64,000 nucleotides of DNA from contig NC_089433.1 of the NCBI RefSeq assembly GCF_026210795.1, positions 3,596,001 through 3,660,000 of the forward strand, written 5' to 3'. The stretch comes from Rhizophagus irregularis. Taxonomy: Eukaryota. Below, piece by piece: positions 3,981 to 64,000 of this stretch. Position numbers and translations under genes: made by a program. The notes beneath the pieces are model-generated. The model was not told where the DNA came from, made no database searches, and saw only the letters and a program-made list of their open reading frames with translations. Each line of letters opens with the position of its first letter. Position 1 is the stretch's first letter.

Positions 3981-4126
3981 AATGTAGTATTTAAAGGATG
4001 AATTTTATTTGTGGCAAAATTAGAATAAATACTGTACAGTATTTATGGTACACATTGTATGTATCATTGTAACAAAGAAATCAATAAATTATTGCTATAT
4101 TTACGTAACTAACTCTCGTTATTAAA

Positions 4127-4527: not shown

Positions 4528-4859
4528 TCATGAAAAATATATCTAAATTAAAATTTACATGTAAAGCGTAAGAGAATGAATTATATTCATCTAAACGAAA
4601 ATATCACAATTAATGTAATTTGTTATAATTAATATATTCCATTTTTTTGTCCTTTAATAAATTTCTGTAATAGTAGTACAAATGAAATAATTTTATCCTT
4701 TGTAATAAATTACAATTTATCTTAACTATAGAGAGGTAGACTGTTCCTATTTTGGAAGTAAAGACTGTCATCATCTGCAAGTTGGCGTACGTACTGCTTA
4801 ACCATATATGATATCTGAAACAAACTATAAATAATTTTTTTTTTAAAAAAAAAGAAAAA

Positions 4860-6985: not shown

Positions 6986-9095
6986 ATGAGCACATCTGAA
7001 AACTACATTGGTCAAAATGGTAAATCTTGTAAATTGTATTTTAATTATAATATTAATAATTATTCAAATCTTTCAATCTTACTATTTTCAATCTTTCTAG
7101 CCATTATCTCTTATTTTAAAAATAGTAATAGTAATAAGACAACAAAGTCATATTTAGGGTTCTTGAAAAATCACCATGATATTATTATTACTTCAATTGC
7201 TACTACTACAACTCTTTTAGACAATTGGAACAAACTTGATAATTATTGGGCTGTCCATTTTTTGAGAGAAGGAAAGAGAGAAGGAAATGATTTTCTTGAT
7301 TTAAAAAATAAGGTGTGTTTTTTTTTTATTTTGCATAAGTTAGGGTAACCCCTAAGCAACTACGCTTACCTTAGGGAATTTACTGGGTTCGACAACCTTG
7401 GTAACCACTCCAAGTTTCTCAATTCAGGTGTCCTAACTTCTGTTGTTGATATAAGTCTGCTAATTCTGGAGGAGGAATTGGCTATGTACCTTCTTCTATC
7501 CTAAATAAAATTTAAACACACTACTAACAATGTCTTTCTTATAACAGGTGACTGCAGAACGATTACGTTATGCAAAAACATTAAAAATATTCTGGCAAAA
7601 AATTATTAAGAAATATGAAAAAAATTCAATATCTGCTCATTCTGCTGAAAAAGAAAATTTAGTACCTGCTAATTCTTCACATTCACAAAATATCATTGAG
7701 AATTCTGATAAAAATCATTTTATTCCTATTGAAAATCAATCCATTTTTAATTCATCTCATTCTTCTAATTCGTCTCATTCAAAAGAAAACATTGAAATTC
7801 CTATTAAGGATCATTCTATTTCTACTACTAAAGATCATTTCATTTTTACTAAAGATCATTCTATTTCTACTGAAAATCATTCTAAAAATTCTCAACTTAT
7901 CAATTTCTGTTATGATATTCTTCAGGAACTTGATATTAAATCTAATATTCATCCATTTTATGAATATAATGAAGAGAAAATTTCGAATAAATTTATAAAA
8001 AATCCTATGGATTTATTTACAATAATTTCAAAATTAAAAAATAATCAATATGCAAGTATTGAAGAATTTGAGAATGATATTCGTCTTATATTTCGTAATT
8101 GTTATATATATAATGATATAGGAAGTGAAATGCATATTTTAGGAGAAGAATTAGAATCAACTTTTAATAAGATCTGGACTGAAAAAATTGGTATTCAAGT
8201 TAAACAAAAAGAGAACTTAAAAAGAACACGAGATAATGATACTGATTTATCTTTTGGTAATTATAATAATAATATTTTTTTATTTTTATTATTCATTTAT
8301 TCATTAATTTTTTTGTAATTATTTATTTATTTACTAGAACTTGTAACAAAACAAATTAAAATTTTAGAACAAAACAGAGATAAGTTAGTATATGGACAAG
8401 TTGTGAATGATGCTCTTCTTATTATTTCAGCATATGAAAATCTTGTTGCTGATAATATTATACCTTTTATTGAACTTTTAAAAACATTCTTATTAACGAG
8501 ATCACAGATATCATTATCTTCTGCTGATGAATCTGTTCTTCAAGCAATTGTTGAAAACCTTTTACCATTAAAATATTGTATTCCTGAATTATCACTAGTA
8601 ATGGATGGTACAAAATTAAAAGGATTTGGTCGATTTGGATATTCAGATATTTTTATCTTAAAAGGAATAGGAAATAATAATATTAGTTTGGAATTAAAGT
8701 ATATTTCATTAATTGGATTAATTAAAAATCAAAAAAAAAAGTTTAATACAAATGATTTAGAAAATTTAGATAAAATTATCGAAAAAGAAGATGAAACAAT
8801 TCTACTAAAAAGATCATATGAATATTGGTCAAAAGAATATAATGAAACTAAAAAAATAACTATAGAAGAAGTATTAAATAATGGAATTAATCAATTAAAA
8901 TCATATATGAATATTATTTCAAAAGGAAAACCAATTGATTATTATAGTTCAGGAATATTTGATAAAAGAATTAAAATAACTAAATCAAATCCTAATAAAT
9001 TAAGAGGATTTGTTGTATTAGTAATTGGTTTTCGACGTATTTTATGGAGATCTGTAGAAGAAATAACATCTAATTATTCATATGAAAAAATTTAA
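6986..9095 (+). CDS. Four-exon protein: N-terminal helical domain + bromodomain + C-terminal PD-(D/E)xK-like nuclease (exons 6986-7019, 7101-7312, 7548-8256, 8338-9095)
   Basis: All three introns are GT-AG and the frame is continuous after splicing. Bromodomain signature KNPMDLFTIISKLKNNQYASIEEFENDIRLIFRNCYIYN. Nuclease-like motifs PEL...GYSDIFIL...SLELKY...QLKSY. Confidence 0.8.
7313..7547 (+). ncRNA. Structured intron RNA, copy A (intron 2 of the bromodomain-nuclease gene)
   Basis: GTGTG...TACTAAC...AACAG intron; several helices show compensatory changes relative to the copies at 61.5-62.6 kb. Confidence 0.75.
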
Positions 9096-13134: not shown

Positions 13135-14260
13135 AAAGAAATTTGAAGATATGTATCACTAGTAACAATTACATTAAATATAAATTTTTTTTTAAAAAAA
13201 AAAAATTCCATAGCCAATAAGCATAATTTATGGTTAAATTCTACGGCAGATCCATTTCTATCAAACGCGATGCATTTGTCAAAACATACATATTATTTAT
13301 AACATATCATGCATAATATGTTTCAATGTGTTTTATCATATTGAAATCACCTTTAATCTCTTAAGCTATATATGTCTAATTTCTAATTTCTAATGATATA
13401 ATTTTAATCAATATTATACCATACCTATTGACAAAATGATTAAGTTCAGTCAATATGATAAAGAATAGATTGGATTATTATAAAAGTAGTGTTAATTTTT
13501 TTTCATTTTGATATCTCAATGTGTCAGTTTGAGTCATACTATCCACAAATAATTTTTTTTATTTAAGACATTAAACTCTCATCAATTTCTCATCAATATT
13601 TTTTTTATAATATCAATTTTTAAACACAATAATCAATTTTTTTTGCCAATTTCAATATGAGCATATCTGAAAACCACATTGGTCAAAATGACTGTATTTA
13701 ATTTGTAACTTATTATAATATTAATAATTAATCAAATCTTTTAATTATCTCTTAAAATCATATCTAAAAGTCACTGTGATATTATTATTACTTCGAAAGA
13801 AATGATTTTCCTGATTAAAAAGATAAGGTGTGTTTTTTTTTATTTTGCATAAGTTAGGGTAACCCCTAAGCAAATCCGTTTACCTTAGGGAATTTACTGG
13901 GTTCGACAACCTTGGTAACCACTCCAAGTTTCTCAATTCAGGTGTCCTAACTTCTGTCGTTGATATAAGTCTGCTAATTCTGGAGGAGGAATTGGCTATG
14001 TACCTTCTTCTATCCTAAATAAAATTTAAACACACTACTAACAATGTCTTTTATATAACAGGTGACTGTAGAATGATTACATTATGCAAAAATATTGAAA
14101 TGTGAAGTAACTTCAGTATCTGCCGAAAAAGAAAATTTAGTACCTGCTAATTCTTCCCATTCACAAAATATCATTTTATCAATTTGAACTTGATATTAAG
14201 TTTAATATTTATCCATTTTATGAATATGATGAAGAAGAAATTTCAAATAAAATTATTAAG
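13135..14260 (+). pseudogene. Decayed duplicate of the upstream region and 5' part of the bromodomain-nuclease gene
   Basis: Matches about 6390-8000 (ATGAGCATATCTGAAAAC..., GAAAAAGAAAATTTAGTACCTGCT). Has large exonic deletions, loss of the first donor site, and stops. Confidence 0.85.
13828..14061 (+). ncRNA. Structured intron RNA, copy B
   Basis: Nearly identical to 7313-7547; the few substitutions fall mainly in a hairpin loop and outside the main helices. Confidence 0.75.
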
Positions 14261-25708: not shown

Positions 25709-28359
25709 TGACATGTCGTATTCGTCGTAATTGTCATAATCTTTATAGATGATAGTCTGGTCTAACCAGCGATTTTTTTTTTTATTATTTAATAGAATAA
25801 ATGAATAAATATATTTCGAAAAAGAGAATTGCTCGGAACATAAACGTGAAAATAATAAAATGAATTTTCAATTTTATTTTTTTTTGAAAAAATAAAGTAT
25901 TTCAAACTAATATTCTTACTAGTAACATATTCTTACTATTAACTTGTTAGTGCCAGTTCTTTTCAAATATCGCTGAAAGATATTCTTGAATATATTTCAA
26001 ATATGATTCTTTGGAATGTAAACTCTTTGTATAATTTAGGAGCATATTTTTTACGAAGGGATTAGATAAGAGAACAAGAGACTTTAAAAAATATCTTGTT
26101 AACTATAGATAGTTATACCAATTTGGGGAATCTATAACGTAACATTATAATTGCTACGTATTTTATAATAATATACTACCAGCTACGGTTGCTAAATTCT
26201 ATAATATGGACGCGAAAGATATATAAAAAAAAAAAAATTAATTTTTAATTATGGAATTTTGAGTATAATCTATTCAAATCAATCGAACCTTCTATGTTTC
26301 TGGTACTATTAAAACGACCTGTCTTGATAATTATACGCTTTTATATATAATTTCTTAATGTCAGTTCTTTGTCAACTTTCATAATATGTATCAGTAACGT
26401 TAGAAATTTTCACATTATTACGCAAAGAAATCATAACTGGTGAAGATTTATTCAATTATTGTTATTGTAAAATGATTGAAACAATCGAGTTCTAATAATG
26501 GATGAAATAAATTTTACCAATTTATGCCCATTTTAACATTAACATCATATCGAAATTAAATAGGATATAACCTCTCTTTTTTTGGATAATTTTAACTGGC
26601 ATTATACGACTAATTGTAAATTTCTTTGGCTGTTCTATCTGTCATTTCCTTATATATTGTAACTGAACTCCAATTAAATTAATCTTATGCGCGTTTGTGA
26701 ATATAAACGACACTTAATTACTTAAAGTCCTATGAGTAACAATTATCACGAATTCACGACAAACAATTTATGTTTATTATTACTATTGTTATTTAGTCTG
26801 AGCAATCTAACCTAGACGCAATTGTTACTATATTATCCACATATGAGTCTAAGTCATAAATACTTTGTATGTTAGACTATTCTCGTTACACTAGATCACT
26901 GAGGTCATAATTTTCTTTTAATAAAACAACATATTGGATGAGCGACTGACGCGTAACATTAAATTATCTTTTATCATTCGTCATATAAGTTATCGATTCT
27001 CGAATAATTCTTTTGGCGAACTAAATAACATTTACACAGGTTAATAAGACAAATTCCTCGAAAAGTTCAATCATTTTTATGTAATTATAACCCTTTTTAG
27101 AGCAGTACTAAAAGATAATTATCTTTGTGAAATCTCTTATATATATAAATATATTTGAAATACCGTAATACTATAAATATTATACAGTACATTATTGAAC
27201 TAATCCTCGCCCATTTTTGAATCAAAAATTAATAAAGCTTATTTTGATTGATTGATTTGACTATAGAGAAAAACTTCCCAATATTGATAATAATTTTAAT
27301 TACTTTAAACAATAAATGATAAAAAATATTTCGCATAGTTATGTTGAATAATTGATACATAGATATTTTTATTATTAATCGATAATACTGTAAATATAAT
27401 TTTCAGTATTTATTAGTTATATCGCCTATATCGCCAATATAATGTTCATAAAAAAATCATATTAAACTCGAAACTAATTAACTAATTTTGATTTTTTTAA
27501 TTTGTATTAAGATAAGCTTGTACGTGTTTGAAAAGTTTATTCGTAGTTTTTTTTTGTTTAAAAAAGTTAATAAAAGCCAAACTGACCCACAGCAAATATA
27601 ATGAAAAATATCTTTGTTTGTAATCAGGAATACTCAGCGTTTAATTTCTGTTAATATTTTTATTAACGAAATAATATTGAATAACTGATTAATATTAACT
27701 GAAATTCTTAATTTGGTTAAATATGAAAATGGTTCGAAATAAATATTTTTGACTTAGTGAAAGTTTTAATTATAAATTCAAATATATTAAATTTTTATTT
27801 TTTTATAAAGTACGTCCAATAATTAACAAACCTTATAGTGGTTCAGATGTTAGTGTTAGTATACGTGGCCGCTTAGAAACGAACCATTCCTAATTTCGTG
27901 CTTATTCTCTCTGACCAATCGCCTTAGCTCATAATTTTAAACGCCATTAGTATATAATTTCTTATGTTCTTATGGTAAATGCTGCTGTAGAATAAATTGT
28001 ACCTTTTTAATGTAATTCATGATACCCAGTTCGGTTCAGCTTTTTACTTTTCTACCCATCTTTCCGTTTATTTGCCGCCTTCAAAATGGTTAAATTGTTG
28101 AGTAATATGATGGAGGGAAAAAAATGTGTACATTCCAGTACACCATAAAAGTTCAATCATTTCATGGCTCACAAATTTTGTCGGTTAGTATGACCCGAAC
28201 CTTTATAAAACCATTAGGTCATTAGTCGATCTATGATTTTGGCGTAGATGTACAACCATCAATATTTAATTTAACTATTTTTGAAATGATTTAAATATTA
28301 CAAAATGGCCAGTATTTAATTTTGATCGTCTTTTTTTTTTTATTTTAAAATTATAAATT

Positions 28360-29885
28360 ATGTCCGCCGAATTTTTCTCAAAATTAAGTCAAAATTATAT
28401 TGAATTATTAAAAGATGATGAATATTATGATATTACAATTGAAGTTGGTGAAGATCCTAATGTAAAAATATTTCGTGCTCATATGAATATTTTATGTTAT
28501 CGTTCTCCATATTTACGACGAGTTTTGGCTTCTAACAAAAAAGAAGATAACATTTTATCTCACATTAGATTACCAAATATATCACCGGAAATTTTTCAAA
28601 TTATTTTAGAGTAAGTTCTAATTTTATATTATCCATACAATAACCTTGAAGAATCAAATTATTAACTTTAAATTTTTCGTAATACAGATATATATATGGT
28701 GGTATTATTTCTTTAAGTGGACAGGATACTTCAGACATTCTAGATGTTTTGTTGGCTGCAAATGAGCTTTGTTTTCAGGAACTAGTTGATTATTTACAAA
28801 AATATTTAATTGAAAATAAATCTGAGTGGATGAAAGAAAATTTCGAATTTACTCAACGAATCAGTTCACAATCTAATAATTTAGTGGACCTTCAACATTT
28901 TTGTACAGATTTTGTTGCTAAATTTCCTGAAAGAATACTTAAGTCGCTTTATTTTACTTCACTTTCCGAGAAATTGTTGATTTCACTCATTAAGAGGGAT
29001 AATTTACAAATGAAAGAAGTTGAAATTTGGGAACATGTATTAAAATGGGGTCTTGCACAAAATCCTACTCTCGTTTCAGATCCTAATGATTGGTCAGATA
29101 ATGATTTTAAAACAATGGAGAATACTTTGCAATATTGCCTACCATTTGTTAGACTTTTTAGTTTATCATCCAAAGAATTTTCAGATAAAGTTAGACCATA
29201 TCAAAAGCTTTTTAAACGTCAATCTTATGAAGATCTATTAAATTCTTATTTGGATCCTTATTATGAACCAAGTGACAGTATCTCACTTCCTAGAAATATT
29301 GAAATAGATGGAATTATTGATTCAAAAATTGTTAATTTAAATATTGTTTCAATTATTTCAAGATGGATTGATAAAGTAGATGTTAATTGTAAATTTTCTC
29401 ATTTAAGAGAATTATATTTACCATACGAATTTCAATTATTGATAAGAGGAAGCCGAGATGGATTTACTCCTAGAAAGTTTCATACTTTATGTGATAATAA
29501 GCATAATACAGTTACATTTATTAAAGTAAAGGATTCAGAAGAAATTCTTGGTGGATACAATCCAATAACATGGATGAATGTTAATTCTTGGGGTGAAGCT
29601 CAAAATTGTTTTATTTTTTCTTTTAAAAATAGAAGTAATTTTAAAGATGCAATTTTGAGTATTGTAAAATATACAGACAACGCGTTGAATTATCATCCTG
29701 ATCATGGCCCATTCTTTGGCAATGACCTTATAATATATACATCTGAAGAATCTAAAGATTCAGCTGATATAGATTTTGATACGACAAAAGTTTGTAATGA
29801 AACATCTTGTTACGAAAAAAGTATAAGGGAAGGAGGGGAATTTCTAATGGAAGATTATGAAATCTTTCAAATTATAAAAAGATAA
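28360..29885 (+). CDS. BTB/POZ-BACK-TLDc protein (intact; intron 28611-28687)
   Basis: Same motifs as gene 1; frame is continuous after splicing. Confidence 0.92.
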
Positions 29886-30238
29886 ATAGTATTTTTTTTA
29901 TTTTGTTTCTTCGTATCTATACAATATGTAATTTTTATTAACTTTTCCTGGAATAAGCAGTAAAAATGAAACGTGGTATATTGTAAATAAAATTATATAC
30001 CTTATTTATTTTTCGTTTTTTTTTTCATTCTCGGTATAATTTATATTTACTATTCAACTGAAATTATTCAAATTTATCATTTGAACATTAGCTACAGTAT
30101 ATGTAAGTGCTTATGGCGACTATGCGTTAGTTAAATGCACATCAATATTTTAATTTAGCCATTTTTGAAATAATTATATTACAAATGGAGTAATTTATCG
30201 CCAATATTTTTGATCGATTTTTTTTTTACTTTTAAATT

Positions 30239-31756
30239 ATGTCTGCCGAATTTTTTTCGAAATTAATTCAAAATTATGTTGAATTATTGGAAGATGATGA
30301 ATATTATGATATTACAATTGAAGTTGGCGAGGATCCTAATGTAAAAATATTTCGTGCTCATATGAATATTTTATGTTATCGTTTTTCATATTTTCGGCGG
30401 GTTATAGCTTCTAATAAAAAGGACAACGTTTTAGCTCATATTAAATTTATAAAAATATCACCGGAAATCTTTCAAATGATTTTGAGGTATTTTATAATTT
30501 TTATATAAAATACATTTAAAACATTTTTTTTAAAATATTTATATTTTATTAACTGGATTTGTGATATAGGTATATTTATGGTGGTATTCTTTCGTTAAAT
30601 GAACAAGAAAATTCAGATTTTCTTAAAGTATTGGCTGCTGCGGATGAACTTCGTCTCCAAGAACTAGTTGATTATTTACAAAAATATTTAATTGAAAATA
30701 AGTCCGAATGGATGGAAGAAAATTTTGAATTTACTCAACGAATCAGCTTACAATCTAATAATCTGGTGGAGCTTCAACAATTTTGTGTAGATTTTATTGC
30801 TAAATCACCTGAAAAAAATATTTAAACCACTTTATTTCACTTCGATTTCTGAAAATTTTTTAATTTCACTTATTAAGAGAGATGATTTACAAATGAAAGA
30901 AATTGAAATATGGGAGCATGTATTAAAATGGGGACTTGCACAAAATCCCACTCTCGTTACAGATCCTAATGTTTGGTCAGATGATGATTTTAAAACAATG
31001 GAAAATACCTTGCAACATTGTCTACCTTACGTTAGACTTTTTTGTCTATCATCAAAAGAATTCTCACAAAAAGTTAGTCCATATAAAAAACTCTTAAATA
31101 AACAACTATATGAGGATTTATTAAATTCTTACTTGGATTCTGGTCGTGAACCGATTGAAGACATTTCATTGCCTAGAAACATTGGAAATATTGAAATTAT
31201 TGATTCAAAAATTGTTAATTTAAATATTGTTTCAATTATTTCAAGATGGATTGATAAAGTTGATGTTAATTATAACTTTTCTCATTTAAGAGAGTTATAT
31301 TTACCATATAAATTTCAATTATTGATAAGAGGAAGCCGAGATGGATTTACTCCTAAAAAGTTTCATACTTCATGTGATAATAAACATAATACTGTTACTT
31401 TTATAAAAGTAAAGGATTCAGAAGAAATTCTTGGTGGATATAACCCTCTAAAATGGGAATCTTCTGATACTTGGGGTAAAACTAATGTTAGTTTTATTTT
31501 TTCTTTTAAAAATAAGAATAATTTTAAAGATGCAATATTGAGTATTATAAAAGATACAAACAACGCGTTGAATTATCATTCCATATTTGGTCCATGTTTT
31601 GGCAAAGATCTTTTAATGTATACATATATAGGTGCAGCTGATATAGATTTTGATATGACGGAAGTTTGTAGTGAATATTACGAAAAAAGAATAAGAGAGG
31701 AAGGCGAATTTCTGATGGAAGATTATGAAATCTTTCAAATTATTAAAAATAAATAG
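30239..31756 (+). pseudogene. BTB-BACK-TLDc paralog with a +1 frameshift in an A-run near 30812-30818
   Basis: GAAAAAAATA versus GAAAAAATA in paralogs; could be a sequencing error. Confidence 0.75.
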
Positions 31757-32068
31757 TATTTTTTTTTTTCTTATTTTGTTTTCTTCGTATCTATGCAATA
31801 TGTAATTTCTTTTGGAATAGTCAGTAAAATGTAACATGACATATTGTGAAATAAAATTATAAACCTTATTTTTCATACAGATTATTACATAATAATTTTA
31901 TATTCAAAATATTCAAATTTTATCATTATTTATAAATGTGAACCAGCTACATATCATGACATCAATATTTAATTTAACCATCTTTGAAATAATTATATAT
32001 TAGTTTAACGACCGATATTTAATTTGATCGTCTTTTCATGGTATCTTGTTTTTTAAAAATTATGAATT

Positions 32069-33583
32069 ATGTCTGCCGAATTTTTTTCAAAATTAAGTCA
32101 AAATTATATTGAATTATTGAAAGATGATAAATATTATGATATTACAATTGAAGTTGGTGAAGATCTTAATGTAAAAATCTTTCGTGCTCATATGAATATT
32201 TTGTGTTATCGTTCTCCATATTTACGACGAGTTTTGGCTTCTAACAAAAAAGAAGATAACATTTTATCTCACATTAGATTACCAAATATATCATCGGAAA
32301 TTTTTCAAATTATTTTAGAGTAAGTTCTAATTTTATATTATCCATACGATAACTTTGAAGATCAAATTATTAACTTTAAATTTTTTGTAATTCAGATATA
32401 TATATGGTGGTATTATTTCTTTAAATGAACAGAATACTTCAGACATCCTAAATGCTTTGTTGGCTGCAGATGAGCTTTGTCTTCAGGAACTAGTTGATTA
32501 TTTACAAATATATTTAATTGAAAATAAATCCGAGTGGATGAAAGAAAATTTTGAATTTACTCAACGAATCAGCTCACAATCTAATAATTTAGTAGAGCTT
32601 CAAAAATTTTGTGCAGATTTTGTTGCTAAGTCTCCTGAAAGGATATTTAAGTCGCCTCATTTTACTTCACTTTCTGAAGAATTTTTGGTTTCACTCATTA
32701 AGAGGGATGATATACAAATGAAAGAAGTTGAAATTTGGGAACATGTATTAAAATGGGGTCTTGCACAAAATCCTTCTTTCGTTGCAGATCCTAATGTTTG
32801 GTTAGATAATGATTTTAAAATAATGGAGAACACTCTGCAACATTGCCTACCGTTTGTTAGACTTTTTAGTTTATCATCCAAAGAATTTTCAGATAAAGTT
32901 AGACCATATCAAAAGCTTTTTAAACGTCAATCTTATGAAGATCTATTAAGTTCTTATTTGGATCCTTATTATGAACCAGGTGACAGTATCTCACTCCCTA
33001 GAAATATTGAAATAGATGGAATTATTGATTCAAAAATTGTTAATTTAAATATCGTTTCAATTATTTCAAGATGGATTGATAAAGTAGATGCTAATTGTAA
33101 CTTTTCTTATTTAAGAGAATTATATTTACCATACAAATTTCAATTATTGATAAGAGGAAGTCGGGATGGATTTACTCCTAGAAACTTTCATACTTTATGT
33201 GATAATAAACATAATACAGTTACATTTATTAAATTAAAGGATTCAGAAGAAATTCTTGGTGGATACAATCCAATAATATGGATGAAATTTGATTCATGGG
33301 GTAAAACTCAAAATAGTTTTATTTTTTCTTTTAAAAATAAAATAATTTAAAGGATGCAATTTTGAGTATTGTGAAAGATACAAATGGCGCGTTGAATTAT
33401 CATAACGAACATGGTCCATGCTTTGGCAAAGACCTTTTAATATATACATATGAAGATTCTGCTGATATAGATTTTGATCTTACAGAAGTTTTTACTGATG
33501 AATATTACGAAAAAAGTATAAGAGAAGAAGGCGAATTTCTGATGGAAGATTACGAAATCTTTCAAATTATAAAAAATAAATAG
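32069..33583 (+). pseudogene. BTB-BACK-TLDc paralog with a frameshift near 33340
   Basis: ORF stops at 33350 and the TLDc tail continues in another frame (33362-33583). Confidence 0.78.
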
Positions 33584-33913
33584 TATTTTTTTTTCTTATT
33601 TTGTTTTTTCGTATCTATGTAATATGTAATTTTTATTAACTTTTCCTGGAATAAGCAATAAAAATGAAACGTGGCATATTGTAAAATAAAATTATAAACC
33701 ATATTTATTTTTTTTTTTTTCATTCTTATATTTACTATTCAAATTATTCAAATTTATCATTTGAACATTAGCAAGTACTTATGACGATTATGACGTATAA
33801 ATGCACATCAATATTTAATTTAGCTATTTTTGAAATAATTATATTACAAATGGAGCAATTTATCGCCAATATTTTGATCGATTTTTTTTTTACTTTTAAA
33901 ATAATTATAAATT

Positions 33914-35419
33914 ATGTCTGCCGAATTTTTTTCGAAATTAATTCAAAATTATGTTGAATTATTGGAAGATGATGAATATTATGATATTACAATTGAAGTT
34001 GGTGAAGATCCTAATGTAAAAATATTTCGTGCTCATATGAATATTTTATGTTATCGTTCTTCATATTTTCGACGGGTTATAGCTTCTAATAAAAAGAAGG
34101 ACAACGTTTTAGCTCATATTAAATTTCCAAATATGTCACCGGAAATCTTTCAAATTATCTTGAGGTAATTAATTTATAATGTACATTAATTTATCATTAT
34201 TTATATTTTATTAACTGGATTTGTGATATAGGTATATTTATGGTGGTATTCTTTCGTTAGATGAGCAAGAAACTTCAGATTTTCTTAAAGTATTGGCTGC
34301 TGCGGATGAGCTTCAACTCCAAGAACTAGTTGATTATTTACAAAAATATTTAATTGAAAATAAGTCCGAATGGATGGAAGAAAATTTTGAATTTACTCAA
34401 CGAATCAGCTTACAATCTAATAATTTTGTGGAGCTTCAACAATTTTGTGCAAATTTTATTGCTAAATCACCTGAAAAAATATTTAAATCACATTACTTCA
34501 CTTCGATTTCTGAAAAATTTTTAGTTTCACTCATTAAGAGAGATGATTTACAAATGAAAGAAATTGAAGTATGGGAACATGTATTAAAATGGGGTCTCGC
34601 ACAAAATTCAACTCTCATTTCAGATCCAGATACTTGGTCAAATGATGATATTAAAACGTTGAAAAATACTCTACAACATTTTTTACCTTTGATGAGACTT
34701 TATAGTTTATCATCAAAAGAATTCTCACAAAAAGTTCGTCCATATAAAAAACTCTTAAATAAACAACTATATGAGGATTTATTAAATTTTTACTTAGATT
34801 CTGATCGTGAACCAACTGAAAACATTTCATTGCCTAGAAGTATTGGAATTGATGGAATTTTTGATTCGGAAATTGTTAATTTAAATATTGTTTCAATTAT
34901 TTCAAGATGGATTGATAAAGTTGATGTTAATTATAAATTTTCTCATTTAAGAGAATTATATTTACCGTATAAATTTCAATTATTGATAAGAGGAAGGATG
35001 AGTTTACTCCTAAAAAGTTTCATACTTTATGTGATAATAAATGCCATACTGTTACCTTTATAAAAGTAAAGGATTCAGAAGAAATTCTAGGTGGATATAA
35101 CCCTTTAAAATGGGAATCTTCTAGAACTTGGGGTAAAACCAATGCTAGTTTTATATTTTCTTTTAAAAATAAGAATAATTTTAAGGATGCAATATTGAGT
35201 ATTATAAAAGATACAAACAACGCATTGAATTATCATTCCATATTTGGTCCATGTTTTGGCAAAGATCTTTTAATGTATACGTCTACAGGTTCAGCTGATA
35301 TGGATATTGATGTGACAAAAATTTATAATGAACAAAATTATTACGAAAAAAGTATAAGAGAAGGAGGAAATTTTCCAATGGAAGATTATGAAATCTTTCA
35401 AATTATAAAAGATAAATAG
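33914..35419 (+). pseudogene. BTB-BACK-TLDc pseudogene with a small deletion in the GSRDGF motif (about 34995)
   Basis: AGAGGAAGGATGAGTTTACT versus AGAGGAAGCCGAGATGGATTTACT in paralogs; a non-homopolymer lesion. Confidence 0.85.
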
Positions 35420-35766
35420 TATTTTTTTTTTCTTTCTTATTTGTTTCTTCGTATCTATGCAATATGTAATTTTTTTTAATAAACACTTTCCTGAAATAGT
35501 CAATAAAATGAAACATGACATATTATGAAATAAAATTATAAACCTTTTTCACTTTTTCATTTTTCAATACCATATCATTGCTTATATTTAATATTCAAAT
35601 TATTCAAATTTATCATTATTTATAAATGAGAACCAGCTACAGTCAAGTTATGACGTAGTAAATGCACATCAATATTTAATTTAACCATTTTTGAAATAAT
35701 TATATATTAGTTCAACACCCAATATTTAATTTGATCGTCTTTTTCTTATTTTTAAAATTATAAAAT

Positions 35767-37490
35767 ATGTCCGCCGAATTTTTTTCAAAATTAAGTCAAA
35801 ATTATGTTGAATTATTGGAAGATAATGAATATTATGATATTACAATTGAAGTTGGTGAGGACCCTAATGTAAAAATATTTCGTGCTCATATGAATATTTT
35901 ATGTTATCGTTCTCCATATTTTCGGCGGGTTATGGCTTCTAATAAAAAGAAGGACAACGGTTTAGCTCATATTAAATTTCCAAATATATCACCGGAAATC
36001 TTTCAAATTATTTTGAGGTATTTTATAATCTTTTATAACATACATTTAAATATTTATATTTTATTAACCGGATTTTTGATATAGATATATTTATGGCGGT
36101 ACTCTTTCGTTAAATGAGCAAGAAACTTCAGATTTTCTTAAAGTATTGGCTGTTGCGGATGAACTTCGTCTCCAAGAACTAGTTGATTATTTACAAAAAT
36201 ATTTAATTGAAAATAAGTCCGAATGGATGGAAGAAAATTTTGAATTTACTCAACGAATCAGCTTACAATCTAATAATCTGGTGGAGCTTCAACAATTTTG
36301 TGTAGATTTTATTGCTAAATCACCTGAAAAAATATTTAAAACACTTTATTTCACTTCGATTTCTGAAAATTTTTTAATTTCACTTATTAAGAGAGATGAT
36401 TTACAAATGAAAGAAATTGAAATATGGGAGCATGTATTAAAATGGGGACTTGCACAAAATCCCACTCTCGTTACAGATCCTAATGTTTGGTCAGATGATG
36501 ATATTAAGACGTTGAAAAATACTCTACTACATTGTTTACCTTTGGTGAGATTTTTTAGTTTATCATCAAAAGAATATTCACAAAAAGTTCGTCCATATAA
36601 AAAACTCTTAAATAAACAATTATATGAGGATTTATTAAATTCTTACTTAGATTCTGATCGTGAACCAACTGAAAACATTTCATTGCCTAGAAATATTGGA
36701 AATATTGGAAATATTGGAATTATTGATTCAAAAATTGTTAATTTAAATGTTGTTTCAATTATTTCAAGATGGATTAATAAAATTGATGTTAATCATAAAT
36801 TTTCTTATTTAAGAGAATTATATTTACCATATAAATTTCAATTATTGATAAGAGGAAGCCGAGATGGGTTTACTCCTAAAAAGTTTCATACTTTATGTGA
36901 TAATAAACATAATACTGTAACCCTATAAAAAATTTTTATCCGAATATTTCCATTATTTCTCCGTGTCTTCCGTAAAAATTCCGTGAAAATGATACATTCA
37001 CGGATATCCGTGTTAGCGAGATGAAAATTTCCATGATTTAAGGCTATTAATTCCATGAAAATGATACATTCACGGAAAAAACATGGAAAGATAAAACACG
37101 GATCAGATTTTTTACAGGGTAACTTTTATAAAAGTAAAGGATTCAGAAGAAATTCTTGGTGGATATAATCCAATAATATGGTCGAATTCTAATTCTTGGG
37201 GTAAAACTAAAACTAGTTTTATTTTTTCCTTTAAAAATAAGAATAATTTCAAAGCTGCAATTTTGAGTATTGTAAAAAGTACAAATAACGCGTTGAATTA
37301 TCATCCTGGTCATGGCCCATGCTTTGGCAACGACCTTTTAATATATACATCTGACGAATCTGAAGATTCGGCTGATATGGATTTTGATGGGGCGGAGGTT
37401 TATGATGGAGCAGAATGTTATGAAAATAGTATAAGAGAAAAAGGTAAATTTCCAATGGAAGATTATGAAGTATTTCAAATTATAGAGTAA
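35767..37490 (+). pseudogene. BTB-BACK-TLDc gene interrupted by a MITE in the TLDc domain
   Basis: Removing 36921-37119 plus one TAA restores N-T-V-T-F-I-K-V-K. Confidence 0.9.
36921..37119. mobile_element. MITE with CCCT...AGGG termini and a 3-bp TSD (TAA)
   Basis: CCCTATAAAAAAT / ATTTTTTACAGGG; TAA on both sides; TCCGTG/CACGGA internal repeats; the empty site is defined by paralogs. Confidence 0.92.
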
Positions 37491-38156
37491 TTGGTATATT
37501 TATTTTGCAATAGCAAATTTGTAAAATAATAACCAGGATGATATTATATATGCTTACTTAGTCAATGAACCAAACATTAGTCATTATTAATAAATTTTTT
37601 ATGATTTTATTAATGATGAATATTGTAAAAATTCTCGTGAATATTCCCAATAAAATGTGTTATAACAGAGGAAGATTTTACTGTTTCAGCATAAATCCAA
37701 ATCAGTTATTATTTGAGAATTTTTTATGATTAGGCCATTCCAACTAGATTGTTTGTTTAATGTACCCTTATATTTTTTTAAATTTTGATAATGTATAACA
37801 TGTACATGCATGTTTAAAATATCCATTTAAATTATAAATTTTCTGAAGTTTCCAAAATTTATTTCATTTAGTTTGTTTAATGAAAACCCCCTCCCCCTCA
37901 AACTTTCAGAAATCTGGACGTTGAACAAACAGAACAGTCCTATTAATAAAAATTTACGGGTGTTTCAACACGTATCACGTGACCATATAAAAAAAAAATT
38001 AATACAGAATATTAATTTAGGTGACTTGTAAAGTTGTTGTAATACATCCGTGACTTCAGGTAATTCTTTGTTATTATATTCACCGTTACATAAATATAAA
38101 TTACATAAATATAATAATGAGAATTCGGTTTGAGTTTTTCATTTGCGCAGTCGTCG

Positions 38157-38698
38157 AGGACCCAGAAATATATATACAGGGGTAGGGTACACAGATGCGT
38201 CGCCATCATAGTGGAATTAGACGGAGTAAAGTTTTGATTAGCGTACAATTTAAGAATTTTTCATCCATAGTTAGGCCATCAAGATTGCGTATTTTTATCA
38301 AAATTTTTATATGTAAAAAATTAGTTTGCGTATTTTTGGCCTAAATTTGGCTAATCTTATATATATAATATATTCACTGTACGTTAGTAATATTTAGTAT
38401 TAAATGAAAGAAATTTCTAAGGGTTAAAAAGTGAAATTTTAGAAAATTATTATTGAAAAAATGGTAAATTAGAATAAATTCTATCTTTTCACATTAGTAT
38501 TTGGTTTATAAATAATATAGAAGTCATAATAAAATAATTAATAACTTAATACCTGAAATTTTATTTGCATGATTTTCAATATCAGGTGTATCAGGTGTCA
38601 ATTATGCGTACTAGTACTCATATAAAAAGTCTCTGCGTACAGCTCATAGTAAAAAAAATTTTCGCCACCTGACCCTTATATATATATTTCTGGGTCCT
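38157..38698. mobile_element. Non-autonomous TIR element with AGGACCC termini
   Basis: TIR AGGACCCAGAAATATATATA / TATATATATTTCTGGGTCCT with a perfect 8-bp TSD AGTCGTCG. Confidence 0.92.
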
Positions 38699-39198
38699 AG
38701 TCGTCGTGTTGGAATTTTCCTATGAAATAAGGAGCGTTAATGACTGTCAAACGTAGCCGCAAATATATTGTATTTAATTTTATTTTTAATATATAGACAA
38801 AACCGGAACCTTAGCTATCTACTGTAAGCAGTACGAATTACAAAAACGAAACACGCTAAAATAAAACTAAGTTGTTTAACCCCAAGGAACTGGATAGGAG
38901 CCGCTCTGCCAAATTATTCTAGGAACCCTAGGCGTAGCCGGATTAACCACCAAAACCAGACTGATATTGTATTTAAGACGTTTATTGTTTAGCGAAAGTA
39001 AATCAATTTTATCACGTGACAATTTTTGTTCCACGCTGCTTATAGACTTGTGCTAATTTGCTAATTTGCATAAATACACATCAATATTTAATTTAACTAT
39101 TTTTGAAGTAATTATATATCACAAAATGGCAAAATGGCTAGTATTTAATTTTGATCGCCTTTTCCTCATTTTTTTTTTTATTTTTAAAATTATAAATT

Positions 39199-40709
39199 AT
39201 GTCTGCCGAATTTTTCTCAAAATTAAGTCAAAATTATATTGAATTATTGAAAGATGATGAATATTATGATATTACAATTGAAGTTGGTGAAGATCCTAAT
39301 GTAAAAATATTTCGTGCTCATATGAATATTTTATGTTATCGTTCTTCATATTTTCGGCGAGCTTTAGCTTCTAATAAAAAGAAGGACAACGTTTTAGCTC
39401 ATATTAAATTTCCAAATATATCACCGGAAATCTTTCAAATTATTTTGAGGTATTTTATAATTTTTATATAAAATGCATTTAAAGCATTTTTTTTTTAATA
39501 TTTATATTTTATTAACTGGATTTGTGATATAGGTATATTTATGGTGGTATTCTTTCGTTAAATGAACAAAAAACTTCAGATTTTCTTAAAGTTTTGGCTG
39601 CTGCGGATGAGCTTCGACTCCAAGAACTAGTTGATCATTTACAAAAATATTTAATTGAAAATAAGTCTGAATGGATGGAAGAAAATTTTGAATTTACTCA
39701 ACGAATCAGCTTACAATCTAATAATTTTGTGGAGCTTCAACAATTTTGTGCAAATTTTATTGCTAAATCACCTGAACAAATATTTAAATCACTTACTTCG
39801 ATTTCTGAAAAATTTTTAATTTCACTTATTAAGAGAGATGATTTACAAATGAAAGAAATTGAAGTATGGGAGCATGTATTAAAATGGGGACTTGCACAAA
39901 ATCCTACTCTCGTTTCAGATCCTAATGTTTGGTCAGATGATGATTTTAAAACAATGGAAAATACCTTGCAACATTGTCTACCTCACGTTAGACTTTTTAG
40001 TTTATCATCAAAAGAATTCTCACAAAAAGTTCGTCCATATAAAAAACTCTTAAATAAACAATTATATGAGGATTTATTAAATTCTTACTTAGATTCTGAT
40101 CGTGAACCAACTGAAAACATTTCATTGCCTAGAAGTATTGAAATTGATGGAATTATTGATTCAAAAATTGTTAATTTAAATATTGTTTCGATAATTTCAA
40201 GATGGATTGATAAAATAGATGTTAATTATAAAATTTCTCATTTAAGAGAATTATATTTACCATACAAATTTCGATTATTAATAAGAGGAAGTCGGGATGG
40301 ATTTACTCCTAGAAAATTTCATACTTTATGTGATAATAAGCATAATACAGTTACATTTATTAAAGTAAGGGAATCAGAAGAAATTCTTGGCGGATACAAT
40401 CCAATAATATGGATGAATTCTAATTCTTGGGGTAAAACTCAAAATAGTTTTATTTTTTCTTTTAAAAATAGAAATAATTTTAAAGATGCAATTTTGAGTA
40501 TTGTAAAAGATACAAACAACGCGTTGAATTATCATACCGAACATGGTCCATGCTTTGGCAAAGAACTTTTGATATATACATCTGAAGATTCTGCTGATAT
40601 AGATTTTGATAAGACAATCTGTCATGAACAAAAATTCTATGAAAAAAGCATAAGAAAAAAAGGTGAATTTCCATTGGAGGATTATGAGGTATTTCAAATT
40701 ATAAAATAA
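39199..40709 (+). CDS. BTB/POZ-BACK-TLDc protein (intact; intron 39450-39532)
   Basis: Same motifs as the other paralogs; frame is continuous after splicing. Confidence 0.92.
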
Positions 40710-59269: not shown

Positions 59270-59358
59270 AGTTATTTACTGATCTAGTAGTATATAAATG
59301 GGTTATCATCCGAAGGATGATGACCCATTTATATACTAAACTAGGTCAGTAAATAACT
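59270..59358. repeat. Long near-perfect palindrome (~42-bp arms, GAA loop)
   Basis: AGTTATTTACTGATCTAG-TAGTATATAAATGGGTTATCATCC GAA GGATGATGACCCATTTATATACTA-AA-CTAGGTCAGTAAATAACT. Confidence 0.93.
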
Positions 59359-61431
59359 TTTTTATCATCCTGGACACGGGCATCTAGTTGATCAGTGATC
59401 ACTGATCATAAACTATTTTAGACTTTTGTGTATTTGTGTATTTGTCAGCTTGACGAAACTTTTTTTTCTTCTTTCCTTTAGTTTTACACGATTTTCCTCA
59501 AAAATGACAAGCAAAACTACATCAAAAGTAAGCAGTAAGCATAACAGGGCTCCCTACGAAAGACCTACACAAGAGGAAATTAAAAAATACCAAAATGCAG
59601 CAACACCAGCTGCAACTCAACGTAATACAGAGATGTGGATAAAGAGACTAAAGGAATTTCAAAATGATATTGGATATGTAGAAAATATTGAAGATATTCA
59701 ATCAAAATCACAACTTTGTAATATACTCATTGAATTTATTATAAAAATGAGACCTGTTAATAAACAATACTATTCTTCAGAATCCATTTATAATTGTGTG
59801 TCAGCATTAAATCGATATTTTCAAAATCACTCAGCTATTGCACCATTAGATTTATTCAGTGAACCAGTTTTCAAACCTCTGTTAAACGTTGTGCACTCCA
59901 AAATGCGTGAGAATGAACAACTTAACAGTTTGGATATCAAGAAAGGTGCAGATCCACTTACCGAAGATGAACAAAAGCAAATATTATGTCATTCAAGTAT
60001 GCGTGGTGATAATCCAGAAGGACTGCTACGTAGGGGTTTTTTCTGGATAGCCAATCTTACAGCTGCCCGTGGTGGGAGTCATATTAATATTATGGCTTCT
60101 GATTTTCAAAGACGACCTGATGGAGGTTATAATTTTATAATAATACATGAAAAAAATAATCAAGGTAGACAAATCTCCATGTAGAATCTACTAACAGTAA
60201 ACTGTTCTATAATAATTACTTATTTTTATTTTATGAATAAATAAGGTGGCCTAAATTCGCGTCGTAAAAAAGGCAAAACAAACCAGCCACGAATTTCTAT
60301 CATACCACCTGATGAATTTGGAACAACTAATGGACCTTGCCATGATATATCAAAATATTTGCGTTTACGACCTGAAAATGCAGAACCCAACTTTTATTTA
60401 CGGCCCATTAGTGATATTAAAAGTAATCTTCTTTACTGTATATTACTTTTTTTAGTTTATGTTATTTTATAATTAATTACTCATTTAATTCTAGAAATTA
60501 ATGAAGACCTATGGTATTATCCCCTTCATCTTGGTCGGGATAAGCTAAATCAAATGCTTAAAACAATTGCTACTGAAACTGGAATTGATACTGTTAATAA
60601 AAAAATTTCAAATCATTCTACAAGAAAATCCGCTATTCAGAATTTAAATAATCAAGATGTTGATGCACAGCAAATTATGGCATTTTCTGGACATCATTCT
60701 TTAGCGGGAGTCAATGCATACAGAATGCCTAATGAAAAGCAGATGATGGAAGTAACAAAAAAAGCTTTTCCAGCACAATCAAATCCTTCTATCGTTGGCA
60801 AAAGCAGTACATTGGTAAATATATAAAAAGACATTTTATTTGATAATAGTACAATATTTAATTTTTATTTTTATTATAGAATACAACAAGAAGCTCTGAG
60901 TTTACAAGAAATTCTCCTATTTCAATTGAAGTGGTTTCTAAAGGTACGTAAATAATTATTATCTTTTCTATAAATAATTATAAATTGACATTTTACTCAT
61001 TTGAAAATTTTGATATAGAAGAGCACTGTAAATCGATCATTGGTTTGAAAAGCACTAGTACTAAAGAAATTGAGAGTACAAAAGTAACTAAACGTGATAA
61101 ATTTAAAACACCTTTTAAAGGGAAATTCAGGTCGCCTCTTATAGATTTAAATAAGAAAGTACCAAGTGATGACTCTCAATCTTCTCAAAATATGACTCTT
61201 GATTTGGAGGGAATGAAAGTTCATATCACTAATTGTAATGTAACTATAAATATTAGTAAAAATTGAACGTGAATGTATTAATATGTATTATAATAACAGC
61301 AAACCAATAAAAATTAATAAATTGTAACTATTCAATTAAACTATAATTACTATAGCTTATTATACTGGTTAAATAGTTTATAAACGGCGAAAAAAATACT
61401 AGATGCCCATTAGTGGCCAGGTGATAAATAA
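59350..61431 (+). mobile_element. Crypton-type tyrosine-recombinase DNA transposon
   Basis: Encloses an intact YR gene. Inverted end repeats TTATCATCCTGGACACGGGCATCTAGT (59362-59388) and ACTAGATGCCCATTAGTGGCCAGGTGATAA (61398-61427); short direct repeat TAAATAA at the edges. Exact ends are inferred. Confidence 0.72.
59504..61266 (+). CDS. Tyrosine recombinase (DUF3504/Crypton-like); exons 59504-60164, 60246-60422, 60495-60814, 60880-60942, 61019-61266
   Basis: GT-AG introns keep the frame. Catalytic set present: AARGG (R), EKNNQGG (K), NHSTRK (HxxR), FSGHHS (H), VNAY (Y). Confidence 0.88.
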
Positions 61432-61516
61432 TATTCTTAATTTTCAAATTAATTATTTACCAAATATTATTCCTTTTAAAATTGAAATACCAGTGATTGT
61501 AAATCTCTGCATTTAC

Positions 61517-61918
61517 CTATTATGAAAAAGAAAAATTATTAATAGTGTGCTAAATTTTTATTTAATCATAAAGAAGACATAGCCAATTCCTCCTTTAGAA
61601 TTAGCAGACTTTACTAATAACAAAGTAGGATGTTATCTGCTTGAGTTGGTTATCAAGTGAACAAGAGAAATAAAAAAAAAATAAAAAAAAGAAAAAAAAA
61701 GAAAAAAAGGGAATAAAAAATATAAAAATAAAAATAAAATAAAAAAGAAAAAGCAGGTAATTTCATAGGAATTACCCACTTTGCTCACCCTTACCCAACC
61801 CAAACAAATAAATCCAGTACCCTCCTAAGTAAAATTTGTGAACTCCCCGACTCATTGAGTTATCCGTTCTAATTTTGACTTAGGAAGTTACCCACTTTGC
61901 AAATAAAAAAATACACAC
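61517..61918 (-). ncRNA. Structured intron RNA, copy C (long form)
   Basis: GTGTG...ATAG on the minus strand. Shares the helices and a 33/35-nt block with copy A; the flanking exons are decayed. Confidence 0.72.
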
Positions 61919-62196
61919 CTCTTTAAAGTCTCTTAATAAGCCATTTACACTTATCTAAAAATCAGTAATGCTTTATTCAGAGAATTTTCATCTGTTGTCC
62001 AGTATTTCAATACAAAATAATGCTGTGATTGATGAATAATTAAATATAATTCAATAATAAGAAATCAGATAACAAATATGAAGTATAAACATAAAAAAAA
62101 TTTTTCACATTTTTAACACTTGATATGCACTCTTTTTCAAGAATTCCTCTAGGAAATTTCTTCATTTTACCGGTGATTGTAAATCTCTGCATTTAC

Positions 62197-62586
62197 CTAT
62201 TATAAGAAAGAAAAATTATTAATAGTGTGCTAAATTTTTATTTAATGGTAAAGAAGACATAGCCAATTCCTCCTTTAGAATTAGCAGACTTTACTAATAA
62301 CAAAGTAGGATGTTATTTGCTTGAGTTGGTTATCAAGTGAACAAGAAAAATAAAAAAAAAAATAAAAAAAGAAAAAGGGAATAAAAAAAATAAAAATAAA
62401 AATAAAATAAAAAAGAAAAAGCAGGTAATTTCATAGGAATTACCCACTTTGCTCACCCTTACCCAACCCAAACAAATAAATCCAGTACCCTCCTAAGTAA
62501 AATTTGTGAACTCCCCGACTCATTGAGTTATCCGTTCTAATTTTGACTTAAGAAGTTACCCACTTTGCAAATAAAAAAATACACAC
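62197..62586 (-). ncRNA. Structured intron RNA, copy D (tandem duplicate of C)
   Basis: Nearly identical to C apart from poly-T length and a few substitutions. Confidence 0.72.
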
Positions 62587-62699
62587 CTCTTTTAAAGTCT
62601 TCTAAGCCATTTTACACACATTTAGAAAACTGGCAATACTCCATTCAGAGAGCTTTCGTCTGTTGTCTAGTGTTTCAATACAAAATAGTGCTGTAACTG

Positions 62700-63493
62700 G
62701 TAAATAATTGCCCATAAATTTTGATCAGATTTAAGTCAGGGCTGTTGGATGACCACTCTAACACTACTGGAACATTTTCCTTAAGAAAGGCTTTTGCAAG
62801 ACGGCTGGTATGCTTAGGATCGTTGTCTTGTTAGAAGTGCCAACAATCACCAAGCATCTGGAAGATCTCAGGAATATGTGTACGAAGAATTTTCACATAA
62901 AATTTGGCGTTCATAATTTGTTTAAAACAAAATAATTTTGTTTTTCCTTTCACGCAGAAACTACCCACGCCATAATCTTTTTACGATCTTTAGGCATATG
63001 CTGAACCGGTCTTTCTCCTTTATACCATCATTCAACGGTGTTTCTAAAGAGTTGAAGAGCAGTTTTATCAGTAAAAATAGTTTTATCCATCAGTTATTAA
63101 TATGTTTTTTTGCCCACTCCACATGCTTTACCTTGTGTGTTTCAGTTAGCATAGGGTTGCTTTAGGCAGTCTTTTTATATAACCAATACTTGAAAGATGC
63201 CTTCCAACGGTTCTATACGATACTTCTACGCCTATATTTTCTAATTTTCTTGCCAAAATTCTTGTGGAAAGAGACGTATCATGCCCTACACATTGACCAA
63301 GTGCACGGGTAATCTTTTTGGGTCTGTCATTCCCCCAGCATGCTTTATAGTCCCATTTTCTTTTAATTTTTTTATATTATCGTAAATAGTGGACTTTGGG
63401 ATGTTTGTTAACCTATGTAATTCTTTTACATTATGAATACCGTTATTCCATAAATGTAACAAGACTTCACGAGACGTTTTTCAAAGAAGACAT
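62700..63493 (-). mobile_element. Degenerate Tc1/mariner transposase
   Basis: Minus-strand fragments ELHRLTNIPKSTIYDNIKK (HTH), QDNDPKHTS and EWSSNSPDLN, with stops and frameshifts. Confidence 0.85.
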
Positions 63494-64000
63494 TATGATG
63501 GGAATTTTCTTGCGGAAGGAAAGGTGTAGGTAAACACAAAGGTCATATTATTTATTATTTGTTATTATGGTACAAATTTGACTTATATGTATGGCGTTCT
63601 GAAAAAGGGGTGTATTTTTTTTTTAGAGAAAACTGATGTATATATACACGTAAAAAAATCGTGACTCGCGACTCGTGAGTAAAAAATGATTGTATGATGA
63701 TGTGCGGAGCTTGTTAATCGCGCCTATCGATATAGTTTAATTTATATTAGCTGTTAGTGACTTAGTGTATTAATATGTAAATATATTAAGTGGCTTTGTG
63801 ATTAAAATAGTATAATTTTATGTCCGACATGATTATTTTGGGAATACAGTGATGAAAAAAAGATGATGTCAAAATCATTGTACTACATCACTTGAAATAA
63901 TAAAGATCTAAATTTTTTGATTTACGATTTTTTATATATATTTTGTTTTATTTTATTTAGAGTAGCGTCCCTTAGTTTGTAATTTGAATAATTTCATTGC

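What the first reader, a model, noticed from the sequence alone, without database searches (positions are those of the whole stretch)
61491..62700. Tandem pair of long-form structured introns with dead, diverged flanks but a similar exon junction
Seen: C and D are nearly identical inside the intron; one stem change (TCCTAAG to TCTTAAG) keeps a G-U pair. Their upstream exon remnants differ at many positions and contain stops. Junctions are AAAGAG|intron|GTAAATGCAGAG (V-N-A-E) versus AATAAG|intron|GTGACTGCAGAA (V-T-A-E) in A. The long form also has an internal repeat of GCAAAGTGGGTAA and a long U-rich insert between helices 2 and 3. Inference: either a distant host-gene family with an ancient intron, or a mobile intron preferring AG|GTnAnTGCAGA. 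The conserved exon nucleotides could be part of the RNA element.
Basis: partly seen in the sequence, partly recalled or inferred. Interest (0 to 1): 0.72.

Follow-up and report, generated by a model that had tools for sequence, protein, structure and literature searches.

The report
Structured intron that outlives its gene
In a root-symbiotic fungus, a family of genes with likely DNA-cutting domains carries, at one fixed spot, an intron predicted to fold into an undescribed RNA shape; the intron stays intact and appears to multiply after the genes around it have decayed, so the intron RNA likely has a job of its own.

Summary
C (61517-61918) and D (62197-62586) are 402- and 390-nt GT-AG intron-like elements, 97% alike, with decayed flanks. 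Short-form relatives A and B lie at 7313 and 13828. The window encodes a Rhizophagus irregularis protein.

A interrupts an intact gene: helical header, bromodomain, PD-(D/E)XK-like tail. Ten read-through proteins show the same intron start after the same header lysine. That favours an ancient host-family intron over mobility, though the search was biased towards that host, and homology of the C/D flanks to the header is weak.

The junction motif is protein-level (K|V-x-x-E); TGCAGA is not conserved in the family.

New: the introns are more conserved than their dead flanks (p 4e-4 and 1.5e-8), and their changes spare base pairs. The donor is predicted to pair beside the branch point. A 3' hairpin recurs in an unrelated soil contig. 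Contigs suggest about 100 copies, some in tandem. No Rfam or literature match was found.

Likely a protein-binding intron RNA that gates splicing and also acts in trans. Splicing and function are unproven.

The parts
62197..62586 (-). Intron D, long form, 390 nt, GTGTGT...ATAG, structured
61517..61918 (-). Intron C, long form, 402 nt
62250..62292 (-). D: most conserved 3' module (lower stem, asymmetric internal loop, 9-bp upper stem, RRAGGA loop)
61570..61612 (-). C: the same 3' module
62218..62230 (-). D: GCACAC (predicted partner of the donor) followed by branch-point-like TATTAAT
61538..61550 (-). C: GCACAC plus branch-point-like TATTAAT
62440..62568 (-). D: two copies of GCAAAGTGGGTAA (62556-62568 and 62440-62452); helices 1-2; inner acceptor-like CTTAG ending at 62493
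61772..61900 (-). C: two copies of GCAAAGTGGGTAA; inner acceptor-like CTTAG ending at 61825
62337..62422 (-). D: U-rich tract, predicted unpaired
61657..61754 (-). C: U-rich tract, predicted unpaired
62587..62709 (-). Decayed upstream exon remnant of D; weak in-frame likeness to the header domain
61919..62041 (-). Decayed upstream exon remnant of C, 3 in-frame stops
62042..62196 (-). Downstream exon remnant of D and spacer; the tandem period is about 668-680 nt
61488..61516 (-). Downstream exon remnant of C (V-N-A-E), 28 of 29 bases identical to D's
7313..7547 (+). Intron A, short form, 235 nt, in an intact gene; branch point TACTAAC; inner acceptor-like CTTAG at intron nt 62
6986..9095 (+). 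Intact host gene: header, bromodomain, PD-(D/E)XK-like tail; its exon 2 matches P0001 (570 aa) at 100%
13828..14061 (+). Intron B, short form, 228 of 234 bases identical to A, in a deleted and stop-bearing paralogue

Best explanation
C and D are decayed tandem copies of a likely ancient spliceosomal intron that sits at one position in a mycorrhizal-fungus family of header-plus-likely-nuclease genes, and whose predicted RNA fold is kept by selection after the host reading frame has died, so the intron RNA likely works as a protein-binding module. Shown: the four copies, the fixed position in the short-form family, stronger conservation than the flanks, and changes that keep base pairs. Predicted: one closed fold in which the donor GUGUGU pairs with (A/G)CACAC just before the branch point, an inner acceptor is held in helix 2, and a 3' hairpin displays invariant unpaired bases. 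Inferred: in live genes a factor bound to that hairpin decides between full splicing (570-aa protein) and retention or use of the inner acceptor (91-93-aa header only). Dead copies would be kept and multiplied because their transcripts supply the same RNA in trans as a decoy or sink for that factor.
For: Position: 10 distinct read-through proteins start V-x-F/L/I/Y... right after the junction lysine, in paralogues with different cargo. Conservation: A/B intron 6 of 234 substitutions against 56 of 594 in flanks (p 3.6e-4); C/D 10 of 390 against 22 of 117 (p 1.5e-8); an ordinary intron of a duplicated BTB gene 5 of 68 against 117 of 1430 in its exons (p 1.0). Only 1 of 15 intron substitutions breaks a predicted pair, against 5.3 expected (p 0.006). 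Upper stem: 45 of 45 cells paired, 5 one-sided changes. The amino acids of read-through protein P0005 force one two-sided A-U to G-C change in that stem, and a second in the lower stem as I read it. Donor pairing probability is 0.98-1.0 in the four introns and 0.18-0.65 in 8 ordinary introns of the window. Three gene models use the inner acceptor (P0004, P0053, P0043). The module recurs in L002 with no header exon. Contig depth over the element is 1,112-5,242 (X2) and 1,426-6,344 (X16) against mostly 38-62 nearby, with go-back joints of 455, 572 and 667 nt. PolyA reads are deeper on the intron (about 220 in bin 62387-62533) than on flanks (about 18-37).
Against: No exon-exon or lariat joint appears among the joints listed for two RNA runs (12 further joints were not shown). 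The library is unstranded, most reads come from other copies, and the peak lies beside the U/A tract, so capture of antisense RNA or DNA could explain it. Only five full DNA copies of the module were in hand, and none has a two-sided change in the upper stem. With 30-nt flanks the donor pairing of D falls to 0.63. The C/D flank homology is weak, and a protein search with the C flank found nothing. The inner-acceptor gene models may be ab initio. The nuclease assignment is a lead only (TM 0.59, under the tool's bar for naming a family). No binding factor was identified. Gene conversion could add to the intron's homogeneity. The tool warns that summed contig depth is not a copy number.
Confidence: 0.5

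Rival explanations
1. The fold acts only in cis, as a splicing regulator or aid of live genes. Dead copies look conserved through gene conversion with the many live or recent copies, and the tandem arrays are neutral by-products.
For: The donor and inner acceptor are both in predicted helices. Many near-identical donors for conversion exist. Stems that link donor and branch point are common in yeast introns (PMC12350175, passages).
Against: Conversion alone does not explain why differences between copies spare pairs (1 of 15 against 5.3), why identity drops near the splice sites, or why shortened tandem units keep the whole intron with only tens of exon bases. The module stands without a header exon in L002.
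Confidence: 0.2
2. A mobile, introner-like intron that spreads by reverse splicing or similar into AG|GT sites, with the fold needed for mobility.
For: It is long, multi-copy and stably folded, as introner-like elements are (PMC3609843, parts 1-2 of 3 read). C/D flank homology is weak. L002 has the module in another context. Homologues were sampled through the host exon.
Against: All 10 read-through proteins have it at one codon position. Flanks are as multi-copy as the intron. A search with the read-through region found only itself, 1 of 21 candidates. Introner-like elements degenerate quickly, whereas this one outlasts its host.
Confidence: 0.12
3. The intron RNA is an antitoxin that binds the nuclease made by the same gene family, like a bacterial type III toxin-antitoxin RNA (analogy recalled). 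Dead arrays would give immunity among nuclei sharing one hypha.
For: It explains the fixed linkage to nuclease-like cargo, survival after host death, tandem amplification and the free module in L002.
Against: There is no binding or toxicity evidence. The cargo domains differ between paralogues. The nuclease call is a lead only.
Confidence: 0.1
4. An intron-hosted housekeeping RNA (snoRNA-like guide) or a self-cleaving ribozyme.
For: Dead hosts with intact introns and tandem arrays are typical of snoRNA hosts (recalled). Many read ends fall at 62516/62517.
Against: No Rfam hit at gathering score; only unrelated weak hits at E up to 10. No CTGA, TGATGA or CTGANGA in any of the four introns. No H/ACA spacing shared by all copies (by inspection). 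The 62516 site lies in a loop absent from A and B, and all pile-up sites begin GC-rich hexamers, as priming bias would give.
Confidence: 0.08

Closest known systems
Introner-like elements of Dothideomycete fungi (PMC3609843; parts 1-2 of 3 read)
   Same: Long, multi-copy spliceosomal-type introns with stable predicted structure and pair-keeping changes.
   Different: Those lie in unrelated genes and degenerate quickly. This one is at one position of one family wherever the host could be read, is amplified with its flanks, and outlasts the host.
Yeast intron zipper stems (PMC12350175; passages)
   Same: A long-range helix brings the 5' end of the intron and the branch point together.
   Different: Zipper stems leave 42-85 nt of linker. 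Here the donor itself is predicted to be paired, and unpaired loop bases are invariant.
Lariat-derived circular or stable intronic RNAs (PMC7565381; passages)
   Same: A GU-rich 5' end and a C-containing element next to the branch point, reported for lariats that escape debranching.
   Different: That signature is from human introns. No lariat joint was seen here, and coverage of the first 70 nt is low.
Fungal intronic regulatory RNAs: TPP riboswitch, rpl motifs (PMC5640933; outline and passages)
   Same: A conserved intron fold that may control splice-site choice.
   Different: No Rfam match. That survey does not mention Rhizophagus, Glomus, Mucor or Rhizopus in its main text; its supplements were not read. 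Persistence in dead hosts is not expected of a cis element.
Crinkler-type header plus REase genes (PMC5289972; passages)
   Same: Modular alpha-helical header joined to varied cargo, including nuclease-like domains. One paralogue has a weak Crinkler Pfam hit (E 0.005, below cutoff).
   Different: No structured intron is mentioned in the passages read. Membership of the host was not established.

Membership tests
U2-type spliceosomal intron | GT...AG ends, branch-point motif, pyrimidine tract | tested here: met
   TACTAAC in A and B, TATTAAT in C and D
U2-type spliceosomal intron | Removal restores the reading frame | tested here: met
   for A only: the spliced frame reads on as in P0001; the B, C and D hosts are dead
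U2-type spliceosomal intron | Spliced reads | tested here: inconclusive
   none among the listed joints for C/D; no read data for A
Introner-like element | Longer than ordinary introns, stable fold | tested here: met
   234-402 nt against 65-81 nt for 8 ordinary introns; z-scores
Introner-like element | Copies in unrelated genes or positions | tested here: not met
   10 of 10 read-through proteins at one position, but the sample was gathered through the host exon; L002 holds only the 3' module
Introner-like element | Intron-less empty sites in relatives | not testable with these tools
   no genome held
Box C/D snoRNA | C box RUGAUGA and D box CUGA | tested here: not met
   absent from all four introns
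Box H/ACA snoRNA | Hairpin-H-hairpin-ACA with 14-16 nt spacing | tested here: not met
   by inspection: an ACA at 14 nt only in L002, where it is predicted paired
snoRNA (either class) | Complementarity to rRNA or snRNA | not testable with these tools
   no fungal rRNA or snRNA sequence in hand
Known small self-cleaving ribozymes | Match to the Rfam models; hammerhead core CUGANGA | tested here: not met
Group II intron | GUGYG start, domain V/VI, AY end | tested here: not met
   the GUGUG start is present, but the ends are AG and there is no Rfam group II hit
Circular or stable intronic RNA | Lariat-junction reads, RNase R resistance | tested here: inconclusive
   polyA reads only; no such joint listed
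RNA antitoxin (type III-like) | RNA binds and neutralises the toxin | not testable with these tools
   no RNA-protein tool or assay
PD-(D/E)XK nuclease (host cargo) | Fold and catalytic motif | tested here: inconclusive
   Atlas TM 0.59 and 0.58 to PDDEXK_9 clusters, feature score 0.83 to SduA_C, both below the naming bar; no Pfam hit; own model never finished

The most novel reading that the evidence does not exclude
A eukaryotic RNA antitoxin: the intron cut from each header-nuclease transcript neutralises the nuclease family. Mycorrhizal nuclei have stockpiled about 100 protein-dead, partly tandem copies of the intron as immunity arrays in conflicts among nuclei that share one cytoplasm.
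Probability: 0.1. Interest if true: 0.93.

Novelty: new variant of a known kind. Interest (0 to 1): 0.64.

Why it matters
This is a structured RNA family with no Rfam match and no description found, in the main plant-symbiotic fungal lineage. It is tied to a modular gene family with nuclease-like cargo. An intron that is conserved and multiplied after its gene dies points to a function of the intron RNA itself. If that function is to restrain the nuclease, by gating splicing or by binding it, it gives a testable handle on how multinucleate mycorrhizal fungi control their expanded toxin-like genes.

Tried and rejected
Rfam: no hit at gathering score over the window; only weak unrelated hits at E up to 10 on C/D, A and L002.

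No whole genome is held, and the record behind L002 is not held.

DNA pattern scans: viral contigs gave 0, 3 and 3 hits, judged chance on reading. Prokaryote genomes gave 0 and 0. The metagenome scan gave 6 hits, of which I kept 1 (L002) and dropped 5: L001 and L006 are unrelated, and L003-L005 lie in what looks like coding sequence, score 27 bits and lack the loop.

P0007 and P0025 among the 26 hits were dropped as unrelated.

No RNA holder was listed by the run search.

An 'internal U1-like guide' idea (the loop strand pairing with the intron's own donor) was not among the top four duplexes for A-D and was only -6.6 kcal/mol in L002; it is kept as a curiosity only.

Read-end pile-ups were not accepted as RNA ends or self-cleavage.

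and model R1 used a structure I had mis-registered by one column; they were discarded and redone.

A six-frame search with the header profile missed the C/D flanks. Protein searches with the C flank and with the read-through region found nothing new.

The structure prediction of the host protein did not finish.

Literature: nine full-text searches showed no description of this element in their listings; subscription journals and supplements were not seen. Look-ups of earlier findings returned nothing.

Full report
Setting. The window is AT-rich and intron-bearing. Exon 7100-7312 matches at 100% a 570-aa protein that NCBI names as Rhizophagus irregularis. No whole genome is held, so genome-wide counts could not be made directly.

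Observation. A self-comparison gives a tandem pair (61488-62041 and 62168-62709, 90.8%) and two distant relatives near 7431-7558 and 13967-14072. The four elements are A 7313-7547 (+, 235 nt), B 13828-14061 (+, 234 nt), C 61517-61918 (-, 402 nt) and D 62197-62586 (-, 390 nt) (the C and D labels are mine). Eight ordinary introns that I picked by eye from genes in the window are 65-81 nt and 7-22% GC. A-D are 28-36% GC.

Host family. A lies in an intact gene: helical header, bromodomain (Pfam E 5e-17) and a tail whose nearest predicted structures include PD-(D/E)XK clusters (TM 0.59, a lead below the naming bar). A search with the header exon gave 26 hits; I dropped 2 as unrelated. Nine of the remaining 24 are gene calls that read through into the intron, and cluster look-ups added a tenth distinct one (P0031). 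All ten begin V (once I) and a Phe-rich run, mostly followed by the C-K-G-R-V-T-P type motif, directly after the same lysine. Named homologues come from R. irregularis, R. clarus and Diversispora eburnea and carry different C-terminal cargo. Spliced models read V-x-x-E after the junction with varied middle residues, so TGCAGA is not a family constant. One A-type model reads V-N-A-E, as C and D do (P0045). The sample was collected through the host exon, so it cannot reveal copies in other genes. The two searches that could have done so gave only the query itself (1 of 21 candidates) and one partial homologue (1 of 6 hits).

C/D flanks. A six-frame scan missed them. In the frame of the junction, D's remnant aligns to the header's last helices and ends at the junction, but weakly: 2.9 bits, 22 of 1000 shuffles as good, and 27 of 500 by a second measure. 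C's remnant is not above chance (716 of 1000). Homology is likely but not shown.

Conservation after host death. B has lost most of its exons by deletion, yet its intron differs from A at 6 of 234 sites, against 56 of 594 in alignable flanks (p 3.6e-4; short spurious matches left out). For C/D the figures are 10 of 390 against 22 of 117 (p 1.5e-8). A control intron in a duplicated BTB gene is no more conserved than its exons (5 of 68 against 117 of 1430). Of 15 intron substitutions one breaks a predicted pair, against 5.3 expected (p 0.006). A common variant among other copies (62295, 4470 of 5340 depth in X16) would extend the lower stem of the 3' module, as I read. Of the ten variant positions I checked, six are predicted unpaired and four paired.

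Fold. Short and long forms share one predicted plan. The donor is paired with (A/G)CACAC just before the branch point, followed by a U-rich/A-rich helix, a three-helix domain and a 3' hairpin with an asymmetric internal loop and an RRAGGA loop. Donor pairing is 0.98-1.0 for the bare introns and 0.63 for D with flanks. In five DNA copies the upper stem is fully paired, with five one-sided and no two-sided changes. P0005's residues force one two-sided change there and, as I read, one in the lower stem. L002, an AT-rich soil contig of likely fungal origin, has the module at the tip of a long hairpin without a header exon; its whole stretch is only z -1.46.

Copies and RNA. In two contig sets, depth over 61505-62680 is 1,112-5,242 and 1,426-6,344, against mostly 38-62 in the neighbouring recombinase gene, and flanks are as deep as the intron. 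This suggests on the order of 100 copies, though the tool warns that such depth is not a copy number. Joints that go back 455, 572 and 667 nt indicate tandem units elsewhere, some with only about 65 nt of exon. In two polyA runs of one study (about a quarter of each read), depth is about 220 in the bin beside the U tract, 18-37 on D's flanks and 2 past C. The reads are unstranded and mostly 95-99% alike, so they come largely from other copies or strains. No spliced or lariat joint is listed. End pile-ups at 62516/7, 61582 and 61604 all start GC-rich hexamers and may be priming bias. I have no read data for gene A, so splicing rests on gene models.

Mechanism. Retention or use of the inner CTTAG would give a 93- or 91-residue header-only protein, and three gene models use that acceptor. 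A fold that hides both the donor and the inner acceptor suits a splicing gate. A gate alone does not explain conservation and amplification in dead hosts or the free module in L002, so I infer that the RNA also acts in trans through the invariant loops. What binds it is unknown. The boldest reading is that it binds the family's own nuclease.

Comparison. No Rfam family matches. It resembles introner-like elements in length and fold but fails their unrelated-host criterion so far (PMC3609843, parts 1-2 of 3). It differs from zipper stems in pairing the donor itself (PMC12350175, passages). It shares the GU-rich/C-rich layout reported for stable lariats (PMC7565381, passages). The host resembles header-REase genes (PMC5289972, passages). 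PMC10234402 (passages) shows that RNA-guided gene models exist for this species, but I did not link them to these records. The type III antitoxin and snoRNA-array analogies are recalled, not looked up. Nine literature searches showed no description in their listings; supplements were not read.

Verdict. The feature is real: an undescribed structured intron family, likely ancient in its host and selected as RNA. Mechanism confidence 0.5; interest 0.64.

Noticed in passing
window 59270-61430 (+): Intron-bearing tyrosine-recombinase gene (Pfam Phage_integrase E 2.8e-9), Crypton-like (name recalled), with a long palindrome at 59270-59358. Contigs join about 59456 to about 61220 and the ends are far deeper than the middle, suggesting many internally deleted non-autonomous copies.
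   Followed up: partly
window 62720-63640 (-): Broken Tc1/mariner-like transposase (recognised by eye) directly upstream of D; a contig joint to 63682 may mark the empty site. A 23-nt stretch at 63602-63624 is 87% complementary to the intron's 5' junction, probably by low complexity.
   Followed up: partly
window 62250-62292, 7455-7490; L002 760-805: In all five copies the hairpin loop reads like a bacterial ribosome-binding site (AGGAGG) 8 nt before an invariant AUG. The frames that follow have no conserved length, so this is probably coincidence.
   Followed up: no
window 7478-7487 and L002: The unpaired loop strand UAUGUACCUU is the exact complement of a donor-like AAG|GUACAUA. Pairing with the intron's own donor is weak; action in trans on other donors was not tested.
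   Followed up: partly
window 62441-62467 and 61773-61799 (-): The long form holds four GGG runs that could form a G-quadruplex; absent from A and B.
   Followed up: no
L002 about 815-825 (-): AUUGCAC, the U1A-binding heptamer (recalled), lies in the internal loop below the module in L002 only.
   Followed up: no
window 2382-6367 and 28257-40709: Tandem arrays of BTB/BACK/TLDc-type genes (recognised by eye), several broken.
   Followed up: no
window 23689-23913: Self-complementary stretch of about 225 nt.
   Followed up: no
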